Shown here one piece after another: positions 497 to 53,095 of a stretch of 64,000 nucleotides of DNA. Each line of letters begins with the position of its first letter. Within the stretch, counting starts at the first letter, position 1. This stretch comes from Eledone cirrhosa. Lineage: Eukaryota. The stretch covers positions 23,250,001 to 23,314,000 of the forward strand of contig OZ024756.1 in the NCBI GenBank assembly GCA_964016885.1. The letters run 5' to 3'. A model generated the notes under the pieces. The model was not told where the DNA came from, searched no databases, and saw only the letters and a program-made list of their open reading frames with translations. Made by a program: the position numbers and the translations under genes.

Positions 497-1517
497 TGCA
501 CGTGGCCTAGTAGTTAGAGCGTTGGGTTCATTATCGTGAGATTTTGAGTTCGATTCCCGGACCGGCTGGTGTGTTGTGTCCTTGGGCAAGACACTTTATT
601 TCGTGTGGCTACAGTCCACTCTGTAGGAATAAAGAAGTTGCGAAGTCACTGGTGCCAAGCTGTATCGACCATTGCCTTTCCCTTGGACAACATCGGTGGC
701 GTGGAGAGGGGTGGCTGGGTGGCATGGGTGACTGCTGGTCTTCCACAAACAACCTTTATCGTGCTTGTACCCCCAACATCGGTGGCGTGGAGAGGGGTGG
801 CTGGGTGGCATGGGGGACTGCTGGTCTTCCACAAACAACCTTTATCGTGCTTGTACCCCCAACATCGGTGGCGTGGAGAGGGGTGGCTGGGTGGCATGGG
901 GGACTGCTGGTCTTCCACAAACAACCTTTATCGTGCTTGTACCCCCAACATCGGTGGCGTGGAGAGGGGTGGCTGGGTGGCATGGGGGACTGCTGGTCTT
1001 CCACAAACAACCTTTATCGTGCTTGTACCCCCAACATCGGTGGCGTGGAGAGGGGTGGCTGGGTGGCATGGGTGACTGCTGGTCTTCCACAAACAACCTT
1101 TATCGTGCTTGTACCCCCAACATCGGTGGCGTGGAGAGGGGTGGCTGGGTGGCATGGGGGACTGCTGGTCTTCCACAAACAACCTTTATCGTGCTTGTAC
1201 CCCCAACATCGGTGGCGTGGAGAGGGGTGGCTGGGTGGCATGGGTGACTGCTGGTCTTCCACAAACAACCTTTATCGTGCTTGTACCCCCAACATCGGTG
1301 GCGTGGAGAGGGGTGGCTGGGTGGCATGGGGGACTGCTGGTCTTCCACAAACAACCTTTATCGTGCTTGTACCCCCAACATCGGTGGCGTGGAGAGGGGT
1401 GGTTGGGTGGCATGGGTGACTGCTGGTCTTCCACAAACAACCTTTATCGTGCTTGTACCCCACAGAGGAAATTTCTAGATGCAAAACCCATGGACATTCG
1501 TGACCGAAGGGGGTCTT
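497..1517 (+). mobile_element. tRNA-derived CORE-type SINE with an internally amplified 86-bp segment
   Basis: A-box/B-box head (tggcctagtagttagagc...gttcgattccc), CORE-like tgtccttgggcaagacactttat, then the tail sequence resumes after the tandem array. Confidence 0.7.
688..1460. repeat. Tandem repeat, 86-bp unit x ~9
   Basis: caacatcggtggcgtggagagg recurs at 688, 774, 860 ... 1376, nearly identical. Confidence 0.97.
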
Positions 1518-1605
1518 TGCTCTTTTTCTACTCCTCGGACCTAACTACCGTTTAAGCACCTCCTACTCCTGGCACTATCTCACCTCCTCCTACTCCTGAT
1601 ACTAT

Positions 1606-5539: not shown

Positions 5540-6140
5540 TGCCCGGGCGTTACCGACCTGTGGGGCTTGTAGAACGACTATTGTCGCGGGTGGGATCAAT
5601 CCGGTTGACCACCGAGTCCATTGTCATGATCAAACCGCCACCCTCCTTCAAAAACGAAGGAGAAGCGGTTTTCCTTTGTGTGATAGCTATGGCGAAAGAG
5701 GTTGTATGGTGGACGAAGTTAAAAGGACTGAGGTCAGACACCTTTCTCTCCGGCCAACAACTGATTCTTTTTTTCAAATACCACTTTGGAAGAAGAATCA
5801 GGATGGAGAGAGAGGTGCTGTACCCCAGCAAGTTTTATGAAAGGTGGGTGAAAGTGGCGAGAATGGCCCGAGTGAATGGACCTTCTCTCTATATCAGCCT
5901 GTAGGTTGAGGAAAAAGAGGAAGAGAGGAAAAGGGGTACAAACTCTTCGTACTCCTGGAGATGAGGGTTGCACATTTTTTCGCGGGTATGTGTTACCCAT
6001 ATGAACTGTCTCCCCCTATTGAGGAAAATCGATTAACTTTTAAATTGCATTTGTGATAGTACTTTACATGTTTTTATTGTATGTAAACTTCCCCCTTTGT
6101 ATTTGTCCCCTTCTTTTGTGCCTCTGTGGCTAATAAAGAA
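5540..6140 (+). mobile_element. 3' fragment of a Tx1/L1-clade LINE (ORF2 C-terminus plus 3' UTR)
   Basis: Translation VFLCVIAMAKEVVWWTKLKG...FFKYHFGRRIRMERE...FYERWV resembles the AK-x-x-x-W...ER...F-x-x-x-W C-terminal pattern of Tx1-like ORF2. AATAAA at ~6133. Confidence 0.55.
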
Positions 6141-14731: not shown

Positions 14732-15245
14732 AGAAAAAGAAGAAAGCAAAAAGAAAAGAGAACAGAGGAAAAATAACGGGGGGATATCAAAGGCATACCA
14801 TGATTTAACTTGGTATCCTTGAAATATATATAATGAAATAAATATGGTTTTATAAATATAGTTTCCCTTTATTAATACTGTATATATATATATATATATA
14901 TATTTATTAAAATAACAGATTAAAGTTTAAGCAAAGAATCGCTGCTTTCACCCTTAACAGGATCGTCTGTTCTTATATATTTGATATATATTTATCCTTA
15001 TCGAGCCCTCTTTGGATTTTAGTCTTCAAATTTATTATTATTTATATTTATATATATATATTAAAGTGTTAAACAATATTCAATGATTATGTCAAAGAAT
15101 GAGTTTTACAGTAGATTGGAAGCACTCAACGAGGTTATTAATATTAAAATATAAGTATTAATAAAATAGATGTTCTTTTGATCAATTACATTTTATTATA
15201 CATATTTCGGATGTACAACAGTACGTCCTCATCAGACAAAATATA

Positions 15246-15433
15246 ATTGTTTCTACTTTAGGCACAAGGCCAGCAATTACCCAGTGCATTACTGGTACTT
15301 TATTTTATCGACCCCGTAAGGATGAAAGGCAAAGTCAACCTCGGCGGGATTTGAACTTAGATCGTAAAGGGACATAACTATGCTGGAAAGCATGGCGTCC
15401 GACCCTCTACCGATACTGCCAATCCACCGCCCT
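15246..15433 (-). mobile_element. SINE family A
   Basis: Full-length match. Imperfect TSD caga(c/a)aaaatataa. Confidence 0.9.
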
Positions 15434-15554
15434 CAGAAAAAAATATAAGGATACATGACATGCCCTGAGATGTTAAATGGTTAAGATTTAAGATTACTAC
15501 CTTGATTAAATCTTAACCATTTAACATCTCAGGGTATGTCATGTATCATTATAT

Positions 15555-15605
15555 TTTGTCTGATGAGGACGTACTGTTGTACATCCGAAATATGTATAAT
15601 AAAAT
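15555..15605 (+). ncRNA. Type I hammerhead ribozyme motif
   Basis: CTGATGA (15560), stem II gga-gtac/gtac-tcc, GAAA (15587), short stem III. Mirror copy on the minus strand at ~15195-15240. Confidence 0.7.
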
Positions 15606-15644
15606 GTAATTGATCAAAAGAACATCTATTTATTAATACTTATA

Positions 15645-15946: not shown

Positions 15947-16204
15947 ATATATATATATATATATATAATTACAAGAAACGTAGCGCACTGTGTGGTTACT
16001 GCAAACAAAGTATAAGACGTAAATAGAAGATATATTGCTTCATGTTAAATTTATCAAACCAATGTGGTATTTCTACCCACGTAATTTTAGACACACAATT
16101 TACTGTGTTTATTTCTACATATATTATTATATAATGGTCAGTATTTATACGTTGAGCTTGTTAATTACAGGGTATCAATATGAGTTAGTAACTCTGTATT
16201 TTAT

Positions 16205-18237
<2,033 letters not shown>

Positions 18238-32869: not shown

Positions 32870-33303
32870 TAAAAAAATAATGAATAAAACAATGAAACAG
32901 TTCCTTATATTAAACAAAAAAAGTTCATTATTTAACGATCGTTTCTAGGACATATATGTGTTAGAATTGGCATGCATATTCAACAGATCTATGTACAAAA
33001 TTATACAAAATTATACAAACTATCAAATATAATATACATACCAACACATACATATGCCGTCTTCAGAAATAACACATATATGTCCTAGAAACGATCGTTA
33101 AATAATGAACTTTTTTTGTTTAATATAAGGAACTGTTTCATTGTTTTATTCATTATTTTTTTAACATTTTATCTTGACTCTGTATTCCGTTTATCTTTCA
33201 CCGAAAGTGATTTTTGAATGCATCTCTTCTTTCCATGATATCCGGATTACATTGAGTTCTTCATACGGATTGGACACTACCGTAAACTTTTGGTAGATTT
33301 ATC
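32861..33303. mobile_element. Short fold-back copy of the Penelope-like family at 45762-50276
   Basis: Minus arm 32861-33071 contains the complete hammerhead. Plus arm 33070-33303 carries the same tail as 50146-50276. Confidence 0.85.
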
Positions 33304-33324
33304 TACATATATATATATATATAC

Positions 33325-41004: not shown

Positions 41005-41205
41005 TAAAATATTTAAAAAATAATGAATAAAACAAAGAAACAGTTCCTTATATTAAACAAAAAAAGGTTCATTATTTAACGATCGTTTCTAGGACATATA
41101 TGTGTTAGAATTGGCATGCATATTCAAAAGATCTATGTACAAAATTATACAAACTATCAAGGAGAATATACATACCATCACATATATATGCTGTCTTCAG
41201 AAATA

Positions 41206-41206
<1 letters not shown>
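41005..41206 (-). mobile_element. Single-arm copy of the 45762-50276 family spanning the hammerhead
   Basis: Matches 32861-33071. Confidence 0.8.
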
Positions 41207-41244
<38 letters not shown>

Positions 41245-45721: not shown

Positions 45722-45770
<49 letters not shown>

Positions 45771-46728
45771 TAAACAAATAATGAACAAACAATTCCTTAT
45801 ATTAAACAAAAAAAGTTCACTATTTAACGATCGTTTCTAGGGTATATATGTGCTATAATTGGTATGCATATTTAACAGATCTATGTACAAAATTATACAA
45901 AATTATACAAATTATCAAGATTAAATATACATACCTAACTCATATATACGCCGTCTTCAGAAATAATGAAGTATATTTATTGATAATAACAACAATTCAA
46001 AATATCAGTTCAAAATTGACCAATGAAAACACAAAGGGTTAAAAAGCAGTTTGGTGTGTGTATATACATGTAAAACCCTACACACATTTTACAATAATGT
46101 GTGTATAATATGTATGTGCATACTAAAAAGATGGATGCAAATAAAAAATTTCAAGGTTAATATCTCTGTAAGCTTAATGCGCTGATAAGATACGCAATGA
46201 TACTTATGTAGTCAAGCATATAAATATATTTTTTTCATACTCACACATATCAGTATAATCACACATACATGTGCGTATATATATAAATATACACATAACC
46301 ACGAACACACAAACACACACACACCCCCCACTCACATTTATATATGTGGATATAAAATCATAAGCAAATAGAAATTAAGTCACTCACATAAACACACTGG
46401 TACACACATTTCAAGATCAAGATACAGAAATTAGGTGGGAGGGGGGGGGGGAGGGGTCAGTATTAGGTTGTCAGACCAGACAGCCTAATATAAATGTATC
46501 TATAAATTATGAAAAATAAAAAAATAAAAACAATAATATAATATAATGTACATACGCATACAGATATACATACACATACATACATGTACGCGCACATAGA
46601 GATATCTACACATACATACATACACATACCTATACTGTCATACACACACATACATTTACACGAACATACACATACACATATAAAAAGATAAAAATACGGA
46701 CACACACACGCGCAACACATACACACAT

Positions 46729-46777
<49 letters not shown>

Positions 46778-46888
46778 TATACACACACACACATAGACTC
46801 ATATATATATACATACACATACATATACTTATACATAAACATATATATCCCACACTCATACCACCATGAAAACACATACAAACATCCA

Positions 46889-46939
<51 letters not shown>

Positions 46940-47156
46940 ATACACACACGTACACATATATGCATATATACATACATATATACACACATACACATATATA
47001 TATATACACACACACATAAAATACAGACATGCACATATATATATATATATATATATATATACATTTCATTACCCTTATATATACACATAGTATATATACA
47101 TACACAACCTCGCTTATACACATATACACATAAGTTATATTACAATAATAATAAAG

Positions 47157-47193
<37 letters not shown>

Positions 47194-47332
47194 TATACAC
47201 ACATATACACATATACATACATACACATACATATACATACATACATACACATACATACATACACCTAAATATAAACATATATAAATACACACATACGAAT
47301 AAAGACATATATACACACATAGACACCTATAT

Positions 47333-47376
<44 letters not shown>

Positions 47377-48943
47377 ATATACACACACATACACATACAT
47401 ACACATATATATATATATACACACGCACACACATACAGACACACATACACACTCACATATATATATATATATATATATATATGTGTATGTGAGTGTGCGC
47501 AAATACATACATATATATACACACACACATACAAACACACACAAACACATACATATGCATACATGCACACACACACACATATATCACATAGATACGAAGA
47601 TAAACATATAAATAGAGAGACATACAAATATATACAGAACCCATATACACATACATGCAAACACGCATATACATAAATACATATATACACACATATATAT
47701 TCCTATATACAAGCATACACATACACACACATATATACATATACCTACACATATATATACCACACATTCACATACACGTACATATATAATACATATATAT
47801 ACATACATATACATACATATGTATGTACAATCATATATACACACTCAATCTTACATTCATATTTACATGCTCATATATGTATTTTTATATCTAGAAATAA
47901 ATACCAAAAAAACTATATAGACACCCATCTACCCATATATTCATACATATACACTTACAAAAACAGATGATAATAGTATGGGGGAAAGGGGGGGGGTTTG
48001 GAGAAGGGGATCAAAGTAAATATATGTTTCAAGAAACTTATAATATTTTCCATATCTTAATTCAATGTATGTTCTTACATATTTTCAATGCTAGGAAATA
48101 CGAAATCTATGCATCACAAAATAAAAAAGTATACCATTAATCATATGTCAACTAAACCAAAGATAGTCAACATATTGATTTCCAAGGTGTAAATTAGTTA
48201 GGTTTATAATATTTGAAGCAGAATTATGAAGTCAAACAGTAGTAGATTATTAATTACATTATAACTAAATTAAAGTTAATAATAGGGAAAAGAAACCCAA
48301 ATAAAAATAAAATAAAGTATTACATCGGTAGTAGCATATAAATTATATGTTAACTAAGTTAAAAATTATATATTTATTTCAATAGTATATGTTAATTAGT
48401 ATATGTTAATTAGGTATACAATACATAAAGCAGATATTGTATTTCATCAATAGCATAATATAATTATATGCAAATAAAAATCAAAATTAATACGCATACA
48501 CATACATATACATACACATACACATACATATACATATACATACACATATATATATATATATATACATATATATACACACATACATACATATATAGTCACA
48601 TAAATATACATACAGATACACATACAATACACACATATACATATACATATAGATATACATATCTTTTTCAAAAAATTTGCACAGAATATATTAACTAGGT
48701 ATATATCCAAAAACACCTCCCATTCTATGATTACATGAAATTCTGCAATTCGTCTGTACAAGGATACTAATTTTAAGCAAATTAAAATTAAAATTAAAGT
48801 TTTAGGTTGATTAAAGCTAAAACCAAATAATAAATATATTTCCAAAATGTATATTAATTAGGTCAATAATACTAAAAATTCTTTCTCCGTCATAGGATAC
48901 ATGATATTATTTTGTTATATTTTATCTGTAAAAGAATTATAAT

Positions 48944-48974
<31 letters not shown>

Positions 48975-49195
48975 TAATAAAAGGTTAAACTAAATTAAAA
49001 AATTATAATAAAAGGTTAAAATAAGTTAAAATTAATCTATAAATTAAATTACTGAATATATATTATTAGTAATATTTAAAGGTTTTTCAAAATTAATGAT
49101 TACATAATATTTTCTCATCTGTAATAAAATATTAATTAAATTAAATTTATAGGTTAACTAACATTTAAATTAAATTAAATTCTAGAATAATGTTA

Positions 49196-49424
49196 TTAAT
49201 TAGGTTTATAATATTTAAATGTTTTTTTTAGTTTATGATTACACGATATAATTAATTCCTGTCTTTTATTTAATAAGATATCCCTAGACTTCATTATTTC
49301 AAATAGTTCTTGGGAACATAATCTACATTCCTTTCTATTATTTTGATAAGGGGTGGCTCTTTTGAGCACACTCCAGGTCAAATCATATTTTATATTTTTA
49401 TTTTTATAACTATTGATTTTTTCT
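49196..49424 (-). pseudogene. Penelope-like GIY-YIG endonuclease C-terminal fragment
   Basis: W-S-V-L...PY...C-x-L-C-x-x-E...I...LLNKR-x-EL...C-x-H pattern typical of PLE endonuclease C-termini. Truncated at the inversion junction. Confidence 0.8.
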
Positions 49425-49940
49425 GCTGTCTGGTCTGACAACCTAATACTGACCCCTCCCCCCCCCTCCCACCTAATTTCTGTATCTTGATCTTGAAATG
49501 TGTGTACCAGTGTGTTTATGTGAGTGACTTAATTTCTATTTGCTTATGATTTTATATCCACATATATAAATGTGAGTGGGGGGTGTGTGTGTGTTTGTGT
49601 GTTCGTGGTTATGTGTATATTTATATATATACGCACATGTATGTGTGATTATACTGATATGTGTGAGTATGAAAAAAATATATTTATATGCTTGACTACA
49701 TAAGTATCATTGCGTATCTTATCAGCGCATTAAGCTTACAGAGATATTAACCTTGAAATTTTTTATTTGCATCCATCTTTTTAGTATGCACATACATATT
49801 ATACACACATTATTGTAAAATGTGTGTAGGGTTTTACATGTATATACACACACCAAACTGCTTTTTAACCCTTTGTGTTTTCATTGGTCAATTTTGAACT
49901 GATATTTTGAATTGTTGTTATTATCAATAAATATACTTCA

Positions 49941-50087
49941 TTATTTCTGAAGACGGCGTATATATGAGTTAGGTATGTATATTTAATCTTGATAATTTGT
50001 ATAATTTTGTATAATTTTGTACATAGATCTGTTAAATATGCATACCAATTATAGCACATATATACCCTAGAAACGATCGTTAAATAG
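49941..50087 (+). ncRNA. Hammerhead ribozyme with a ~115-nt stem II insertion
   Basis: tattt-CTGAAGA (49947), gtatatatg/catatatac stem, GAAACGATCGTT (50070), aaata closing stem I. Mirror at ~45820-45966. Confidence 0.65.
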
Positions 50088-50449
50088 TGAACTTTTTTTG
50101 TTTAATATAAGGAATTGTTTGTTCATTATTTGTTTAATATTTTATCTTGACTCTGTATACCGTTTATCTTTCACCGAAATTGGATTTTCATTACATCTCT
50201 TCTTTCCATGATATCCGGAATACATTGAGTTCTTCATACGGATTGGACACTACCGTAAACTCTTGGTAGATTTATCTATATATATATATATATATATATA
50301 CACTACTGTTGTATAATCAGCTGTTGTATCTTCTACCGGTGTGTGTGTGAGTGAGTGTGTGAGTGAGTGAGTGTGTAAGTGAGTGTGTGAGTGAGTGTGT
50401 GAGTGAGTGTGTGAGTGTGAGTGAGTGTATGTATGAGTGTATGAGTGTG

Positions 50450-53057: not shown

Positions 53058-53095
53058 GAGAACAATTGTTTCACCTTAGCGGATCTTCAGCTCGG
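53058..53095 (-). ncRNA. Minimal hammerhead motif
   Basis: Minus strand: CTGAAGA-tccgctaaggt-GAAAC-AATT-GTT. Confidence 0.5.

What the first reader, a model, noticed from the sequence alone, without database searches (positions are those of the whole stretch)
45762..50276. 4.5-kb Penelope-like insertion linking the fold-back layout to a GIY-YIG endonuclease
Seen: the minus-strand body starts abruptly inside a GIY-YIG C-terminus at ~49424 and runs through ~3.4 kb of microsatellite-rich putative 3' UTR to 45762. An inverted, near-identical 720-bp copy of the 3' end plus a 130-bp tail is fused at 49425. Near-identity of the arms suggests a young insertion. The very long, repeat-stuffed 3' UTR implies the element itself disperses microsatellite-like sequence (inference).
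Basis: partly seen in the sequence, partly recalled or inferred. Interest (0 to 1): 0.75.

Follow-up and report, generated by a model that had tools for sequence, protein, structure and literature searches.

The report
Oversized Hydra-type Penelope retrotransposon fold-back
This is a shortened, back-to-back copy of a Penelope-like jumping gene whose family carries a repeat-stuffed 3-4.5 kb tail region in hundreds of copies, making it over twice as long as its described relatives, and the shapes of its copies suggest that each insertion is likely copied twice from one RNA.

Summary
Observation confirmed. 45762-50278 is a 5'-truncated fold-back copy of a Penelope-like element (PLE). Intact copies encode an 813-aa telomerase-like RT plus C-terminal GIY-YIG nuclease with Hydra-clade motifs (not Neptune, Poseidon or Naiad). 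The microsatellite interior belongs to the element (672 exact matches of an interior 35-mer). The unit is about 6.2 kb; complete published Hydra elements are 2.1-2.7 kb. The 3' region (3.2-4.5 kb) holds decayed duplicates of the ORF end plus microsatellites whose length explains nearly all size variation. It does spread microsatellites, but only about 1-2% of the genome's simple repeats (estimate). Fold-backs pair one short and one long end (30 of 31; 49 of 50 minis) with same-template arms. At least 717 mini fold-backs stop at the hammerhead's 5' edge, often with an untemplated G (12 of 38 versus 0 of 37), which suggests a capped start site. Fold-back, tail and (TA)n targeting are known PLE traits, and this scan noted the paired-end rule and a start-site idea before on other DNA of this genome. 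New here: the size, the ORF-end duplicates, a 114-nt stem II and the G signature. No RNA data. New variant of a known kind; interest 0.45.

The parts
45729..45761 (.). (TA)n target tract, left flank
   Evidence: sequence
45762..46484 (-). pLTR of the body, ending at the short terminus (45762); equals the inverted arm
45816..45970 (-). Type I hammerhead motif in the body (core at 45960, predicted cut after 45826), 114-nt stem II region; activity untested
46485..47881 (-). Main microsatellite block of the 3' region (TA/TG/TATG, T- and G-rich on the sense strand), shared among copies
48193..49195 (-). Proximal 3' region with 4-5 decayed duplicates of the last ~70 nt of the ORF (about 49110-49049, 48911-48846, 48755-48689, 48466-48406, 48217-48193) and a smaller microsatellite block
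49196..49427 (-). C-terminal 76 codons and stop of the RT-GIY-YIG ORF (CxxC, E, N, CxH); 5'-truncated, cannot encode an active enzyme
49425..49427 (.). 3-nt microhomology at the inversion junction
49425..50145 (+). Inverted 5'-truncated arm (pLTR copy)
49937..50091 (+). Hammerhead motif in the inverted arm (core at 49947, predicted cut after 50081); 49940 is the position at which mini fold-backs elsewhere stop (predicted capped start site)
50146..50278 (+). Tail between the short and the long terminus, present on one arm only
50279..50300 (.). (TA)n target tract, right flank
   Evidence: sequence

Best explanation
The locus is a 5'-truncated, head-to-head insertion of a multi-copy Penelope-like retrotransposon with Hydra-clade motifs and a 3.2-4.5 kb repeat-rich 3' region, likely made when both nicked strands of a (TA)n tract primed reverse transcription on one RNA at two fixed sites 136 nt apart. 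Shown: family structure, intact ORFs under purifying selection, two exact termini, one of each per fold-back, same-template arms, (TA)n flanks. Inferred: the GIY-YIG domain nicks both strands; here the cDNA from the short-end site ran 3.67 kb into the nuclease codons, the cDNA from the long-end site ran 0.85 kb, and the two were joined through a 3-nt microhomology. Inferred: transcription starts at the 5' edge of the hammerhead in the upstream pLTR, so priming at the 5'-proximal pair of sites runs off the cap and gives ~550-nt mini fold-backs. Inferred: the 3' region grew in the element's lineage by tandem duplication of the ORF end and by microsatellite slippage, and is tolerated because the cis-signals lie in the terminal ~340 nt.
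For: 813-aa ORF in intact copies; model pLDDT 82, best Foldseek hits are telomerase RTs; residues 690-793 match I-TevI GIY-YIG at Z 9.5, rmsd 2.4, 89 of 92 aligned. pN/pS 0.21 over 309 of 595 pairs with pS above 0.05, 35 copies. 101 ends: 50 short, 45 long, 6 tandem; all 95 outer ends followed by (TA)n-type DNA, read by eye. One long plus one short end in 30 of 31 fold-backs and 49 of 50 minis (about 10 loci are in both sets). Arms identical over the last 200 nt in 21 of 30 pairs versus 2.5% of 1,857 between-locus pairs. Either arm can be longer: short-end 11, long-end 7, equal 1 of 19. 25 of 101 arms stop at reference 5850-5862; 717 such junctions genome-wide; G before A5857 in 12 of 38 arms versus 0 of 37 elsewhere, 6 on each arm type, Fisher p 0.0002, or 0.005 without 4 ambiguous junctions. 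A related PLE protein nicks and extends both strands and starts at two internal sites that define the tail (PMC11167929). ORF-end duplicates beat 300 of 300 shuffles. UTR length tracks masked length, r 0.99, n 49.
Against: No RNA data, so start site, unspliced status and ribozyme activity are untested. In 6 of 6 tandem copies the upstream pLTR extends 5' of the proposed start site, so a linear RNA from that site cannot be the only template; read-through from tandem arrays or a ligated circle must be added. Arm identity could also come from gene conversion or snap-back copying. One long fold-back (L096) and one mini (L157) are short/short; L096 lies inside a duplication of another Hydra family, L157 was not examined. 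Arms of L096 and L135 align at only 78% and 87% over their repeat-rich length. Pfam finds no significant domain in the protein. No tree with named reference elements was built. The 49 UTRs include both arms of some loci and are not independent.
Confidence: 0.7

Rival explanations
1. Snap-back: one cDNA is made, folds back on itself and is copied to give the second arm; the nuclease then trims one end to the short terminus. The stop at the hammerhead edge is a structural pause, not a start site.
For: Explains identical arms and palindromic junctions. Self-priming was proposed for PLE palindromes (PMC3846280, passages). The stop coincides with the 5' strand of stem I, and the motif folds stably, z -4.8.
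Against: The short-end arm is the longer one in 11 of 19 long fold-backs, and the untemplated G sits on long-end and short-end arms equally, 6 and 6. Both need extra steps under snap-back. A pause does not predict a G at one fixed position.
Confidence: 0.2
2. The long 3' region is host DNA captured once between ORF and pLTR and then fixed in the family, as with the 0.9-1.5 kb spacers of Pen1_Av.
For: Precedent in PMC3846280 (passages). The host is rich in such repeats: 12.6% of 200 kb of spaced samples, 24% of this window. This family inserts into (TA)n inside another Hydra family's 3' region (L096), so nesting occurs.
Against: The proximal 1 kb is built from duplicates of the element's own ORF end. 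The non-repeat part is constant at 1.67-2.06 kb across subfamilies, whereas Pen1_Av spacers differ between copies. This does not exclude capture for the distal microsatellite block.
Confidence: 0.25
3. Part of the interior is a retained intron, so the mRNA 3' UTR is short while the unspliced RNA is the transposition template.
For: PLEs retain introns on transposition (PMC8557442). A 3.5-kb 3' UTR would be costly.
Against: Described PLE introns lie in the 5' leader or the ORF. No splice evidence was obtained here either way.
Confidence: 0.12
4. One reading: the interior is unique host DNA between two independent insertions.
For: None found.
Against: 672 exact matches of an interior 35-mer; whole-body matches over 3.7 kb at 95-98% in other loci.
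Confidence: 0.01

Closest known systems
Hydra clade of C-terminal EN+ PLEs (Craig et al. 2021, PMC8557442; parts 1-5 of 10, supplement parts 1-2 of 59 and search passages read), e.g. Hydra-1_Obim
   Same: Single RT plus C-terminal GIY-YIG ORF; RW[KR], DKT, CxCX5C, CxxC and CxH motifs; hammerhead near the 3' end, with a U at the cut site as in 10 of 26 listed Hydra rows; (TA)n targets; partial tandems and inverted 5'-truncated copies.
   Different: Unit about 6.2 kb (3' region 3.2-4.5 kb) versus 2,084-2,729 nt for the 14 complete families and at most 3,045 nt for all 27; 114 nt between the hammerhead cores versus short stems with 3-10-nt loops; tail 136 nt versus the 30-40 nt given for PLEs; a ~100-aa low-complexity insert between thumb and linker, shared with a few homologues.
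Poseidon_Ac of Anolis (Frangieh et al. 2024, PMC11167929; parts 1-3 of 4 read)
   Same: Two fixed termini bounding a tail; AT-rich targets; no pile-up of 5' ends at the hammerhead cut site (0 of 101 arms within 3 nt).
   Different: Different clade. There the start sites lie 111-118 nt inside the ORF; here both termini lie upstream of the ATG (153 and 289 nt).
Pen1_Av and Pen2a_Av of Adineta vaga (Arkhipova et al. 2013, PMC3846280; passages read)
   Same: Inverted pLTR with a tail on one arm; long spacer between ORF and 3' pLTR in Pen1_Av.
   Different: Pen1_Av spacers (0.9-1.5 kb) are unique to each copy; here the spacer is 2-3 times longer, shared by all subfamilies and partly self-derived.
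TEs as carriers of simple repeats in penaeid shrimp (PMC7878876; passages read)
   Same: Simple repeats move inside recently transposed elements.
   Different: Here one defined family is measured, and it accounts for only about 1-2% of the genome's simple repeats (estimate).

Membership tests
EN+ Penelope-like elements | Telomerase-like RT and GIY-YIG nuclease in one ORF | tested here: met
   I-TevI match Z 9.5, rmsd 2.4, 89 aligned; Atlas features 0.97 to a GIY-YIG-named cluster. Pfam gave no significant hit.
EN+ Penelope-like elements | pLTR partial tandems, inverted 5'-truncated copy, one-sided tail | tested here: met
   305 exact tandem junctions
Hydra clade | Nuclease C-terminal, with CxCX5C linker | tested here: met
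   motif at residue 673; definition
Hydra clade | DKG modified to DKT | tested here: met
   DKT at residue 115; DK[TS] in 111 of 117 homologues, [AS]DKG in 0
Hydra clade | N-terminal RWK motif | tested here: met
   Conservative variant RWR at residues 37-39, in the same column as RWK of homologues
Hydra clade | [quoted passage not shown] | tested here: met
   residues 771 and 799, both inside the window's fragment
Hydra clade | CCHH motif absent between GIY and YIG | tested here: inconclusive
   Two cysteines lie there, 8 residues apart; the second is absent from the 24 aligned homologues. The canonical spacing is recalled, not tested.
Hydra clade | Canonical hammerhead near the 3' end | tested here: met
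   Core, 10-bp stem I and palindromic stem III by pattern; stem II kept mostly by one-sided changes, 1 of 45 pairs compensatory, 23 variants. Rfam listed no hammerhead. Cleavage untested.
Hydra clade | Insertion into (TA)n | tested here: met
   95 of 95 outer ends, by eye; 4,550 long ends abutting TA
Hydra clade | RT phylogeny with named Hydra references | not tested
   Reference proteins were seen only as supplement text and compared by eye. Filing rests on motifs.
Hydra clade | Typical length under 3 kb (a description of the known sample, not a diagnostic motif) | tested here: not met
   6,198-nt unit; this is the variant feature
Naiad/Chlamys | N-terminal nuclease, DKA motif | tested here: not met
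   nuclease C-terminal, DKT
Neptune, Nematis, Penelope/Poseidon | DKG motif; CX2-5CxxC linker (Neptune, Nematis) or no linker finger (Poseidon) | tested here: not met
   DKT and CxCX5C instead (definitions)

The most novel reading that the evidence does not exclude
This family records the PLE insertion mechanism in vivo: one capped RNA starting at the 5' edge of the hammerhead is primed by both target strands at two sites 136 nt apart. Priming near its 5' end runs off the cap and makes hundreds of hammerhead-only mini fold-backs. Priming near its 3' end makes long copies that carry a self-expanded 3-4.5 kb microsatellite cargo, the longest found for this clade in my searches.
Probability: 0.5. 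Interest if true: 0.62.

Novelty: new variant of a known kind. Interest (0 to 1): 0.45.

Why it matters
How PLEs make their fold-backs and one-sided tails is still open; the in vitro work cited here leaves later steps unvalidated. This young family has thousands of ends and offers exact, testable coordinates: two predicted priming sites, a predicted capped start site and a pairing rule. It also shows that a Hydra-type element can more than double in length through non-coding growth while its ORF stays under purifying selection, which matters for repeat annotation because the interior would be masked as simple repeat and the family split. The broader idea that it drives the genome's microsatellite load is not supported for this family alone.

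Tried and rejected
Naiad was my first recalled guess and was dropped on reading the clade definitions. Rfam gave only sub-threshold microRNA matches on the repeats and no hammerhead. Pfam gave nothing significant for the protein; GIY-YIG appeared weakly in 4 of 25 aligned members. A PDB sequence search gave one weak retron RT hit. The nuclease folded alone was unusable, pLDDT 50, and was not searched. One search was circular (profile included the query) and was replaced. Sequencing runs: no RNA holder listed; no reads were laid, so expression, splicing and presence of the long 3' region in other species remain open. A splice acceptor at the stop hot spot was rejected because the template reads TC, not AG, before it. 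Hammerhead cleavage as the cause of truncation was rejected: 0 of 101 arms stop within 3 nt of the cut site, nearest 6003. No target-site duplication can be read inside (TA)n. The tree of 35 copies has no outgroup, so the direction of UTR change was not inferred. A short inverted motif occurs 23 and 14 nt past the two termini, but the minimum-energy folds did not form it. Literature searches returned no report of a Hydra element of this size or of a cap signature in PLEs. The library lacks most subscription papers, Repbase and Dfam were not searched, and supplements of the bioRxiv preprint 10.64898/2026.07.22.740005 (part 1 of 5 read) are closed.

Full report
1. Observation. The two arms (45762-46484 and 49425-50145) are identical apart from a 2-nt indel in a G run. 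The minus-strand body opens at 49427 in an open frame of 76 codons that ends at the stop 49198-49196, and shares three bases with the inverted arm at the junction. Between the stop and 45762 lie 3,434 nt; 60% of 46485-49195 is simple repeat, against 24% for the rest of the window and 12.6% for 20 spaced 10-kb samples of the genome. Both outer ends abut (TA)n.

2. The family. The window lies in a 3.0-Gb genome; earlier AI notes call it an octopus, which I did not test. The nuclease piece has 40 of 40 scored matches at 100% identity. Exact counts, all lower bounds: interior 35-mer 672, 3'-end 24-mer 4,625, long end abutting TA 4,550, tandem junction into the leader 305; reversed controls 0. The natural copy L047 gives a 6,198-nt unit: leader 153 nt, ORF 154-2595, short end 6062, long end 6198. 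Head-to-tail arrays have a period near 6.06 kb. The window body differs from the nearest fetched copy by 21 substitutions in 3,707 columns. Over the last 300 codons of 35 copies, pN/pS is 0.21 for the 309 of 595 pairs with pS above 0.05, so the lineages evolved under selection for function.

3. The protein. The 813-aa product folds with mean pLDDT 82. Foldseek ranks telomerase RTs first, and residues 690-793 match the I-TevI GIY-YIG domain at Z 9.5, rmsd 2.4, 89 of 92 residues. Pfam gives nothing significant. The motifs RWR, DKT, CxCX5C, CxxC and CxH fit the Hydra clade as defined in PMC8557442 and exclude Naiad, Neptune, Nematis and Poseidon. Absence of CCHH is inconclusive, and no tree with named references was built, so filing under Hydra rests on motifs (about 90%).

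4. The long 3' region. The 14 complete published Hydra families are 2,084-2,729 nt. Here stop to short end is 3,177-4,509 nt in 49 copies or arms with over 90% amino-acid identity; the masked part varies from 1,424 to 2,673 nt, the rest is 1,668-2,058 nt, and length tracks the masked part at r 0.99. Five other Hydra-like families met by chance in the fetched loci have about 0.8-1.5 kb, estimated by eye, so 3' regions tend to be long in this host and this family is the extreme among those seen. The proximal kilobase contains four significant decayed copies of the ORF's last ~70 nt (scores 57, 52, 44, 42; 0 of 300 shuffles reach any of them; other ORF windows sum to at most 127 against 195) and a weaker fifth (score 36). 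Part of the growth is therefore internal duplication. Capture of host DNA, as described for Pen1_Av (PMC3846280), remains possible for the distal block.

5. Does it disperse microsatellites? Yes, but modestly. 49 of 101 sampled arms reach the block. Scaling 4,625 ends by that share and by the median 1.85 kb gives at most about 4 Mb, against about 377 Mb of simple repeat genome-wide (12.6% of 3.0 Gb): about 1%, perhaps 2% if the exact pattern missed half the copies. This is my arithmetic, and the background rests on 200 kb only. TEs as carriers of simple repeats are already described in shrimp (PMC7878876).

6. Ends and mechanism. I fetched all 100 ends listed for the first 99 Mb of contig C1 and found 101: 50 short, 45 long, 6 running on into a tandem unit. 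Fold-backs pair one long with one short end in 30 of 31 cases; the exception is nested in a duplication of another family. Among the first 50 of 717 mini fold-backs, 49 follow the rule (about 10 loci overlap with the first set). Arms of one locus are identical over the last 200 nt in 21 of 30 pairs (2 of 32 dropped for lacking the full 200 nt), against 2.5% of 1,857 pairs between loci. Either arm can be the longer (11 short-end, 7 long-end, 1 equal). The one-sided tail is known (PMC8557442; PMC3846280), and in vitro a Poseidon protein nicks and extends both strands and starts at two internal sites that bound the tail (PMC11167929). The simplest reading is twin priming on one RNA. Snap-back with trimming is the rival.

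7. Hammerhead and start site. The pLTR holds a type I hammerhead motif with a 10-bp stem I, palindromic stem III and 114 nt between the cores (z -4.8), kept across 23 variants mostly by one-sided changes. Palindromic stem III and dimer action are known for PLE ribozymes (PMC4209133, passages). 25 of 101 arms stop at reference 5850-5862, the 5' edge of stem I, and none within 3 nt of the cut site. Arms starting at A5857 carry a G in place of the templated C in 12 of 38 cases, against 0 of 37 at other starts (25 arms have no free preceding base); p 0.0002, or 0.005 when 4 ambiguous junctions are dropped; 6 are on long-end and 6 on short-end arms. That an extra G marks copying of a cap, and that the flanking TCATT resembles an initiator, is recalled knowledge. 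Against a single start site: all 6 tandem copies have upstream pLTRs reaching further 5', which needs read-through or circular templates, the latter proposed in PMC4209133.

8. Earlier notes. I reached the Hydra reading, the paired-end rule and the start-site idea before the look-up (reading stated there). The look-up showed that other windows of this genome had led to the same rule and, for another short element, to a start-site idea. These are not independent support. No note matched this sequence or place.

9. Verdict. A real, likely young insertion of a known class. Fold-back, tail, hammerhead and (TA)n targeting are known. The size of the unit, its self-duplicated 3' region, the long stem II and tail, and the G signature were not found in my searches. 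New variant of a known kind; interest 0.45.

Noticed in passing
window 32900-33310 and 41045-41210: Two more diverged relics of the same family; 32900-33310 looks like a mini fold-back with tail. Both keep the hammerhead core and long stem II.
   Followed up: partly
window 15183-15612: An unrelated hammerhead motif in two divergent copies (cores at 15235 minus and 15560 plus), probably a short fold-back of another family.
   Followed up: no
window 36609 (minus) and 53090 (minus): Two further unrelated hammerhead-like motifs; the one at 53090 resembles the Hydra type.
   Followed up: no
window 49973 (+) and L047 leader: A donor-like GTATGT inside stem II and an acceptor-like TTTAG 35 nt before the ATG would define a ~426-nt leader intron removing 7 of 8 upstream ATGs and both termini, as PLE leader introns do elsewhere; a prediction only.
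   Followed up: partly
L096:1-15377: A fold-back of this family sits in a (TA)n tract inside the 3' region of another Hydra family, within a larger inverted duplication.
   Followed up: partly
L049:232-2990, L098, L112, L119, L137, L150: At least five other Hydra-like families with their own 0.8-1.5 kb 3' regions; the L112 family also shows a short and a long end about 90 nt apart.
   Followed up: partly
   Followed up: no
window 16202-18237: A ~2-kb AT-only repeat tract (GC 8-12%) that dominates the inverted-repeat list.
   Followed up: no
window 514-1552: A GC-rich tandem repeat of roughly 170-nt period giving repeated open frames.
   Followed up: no
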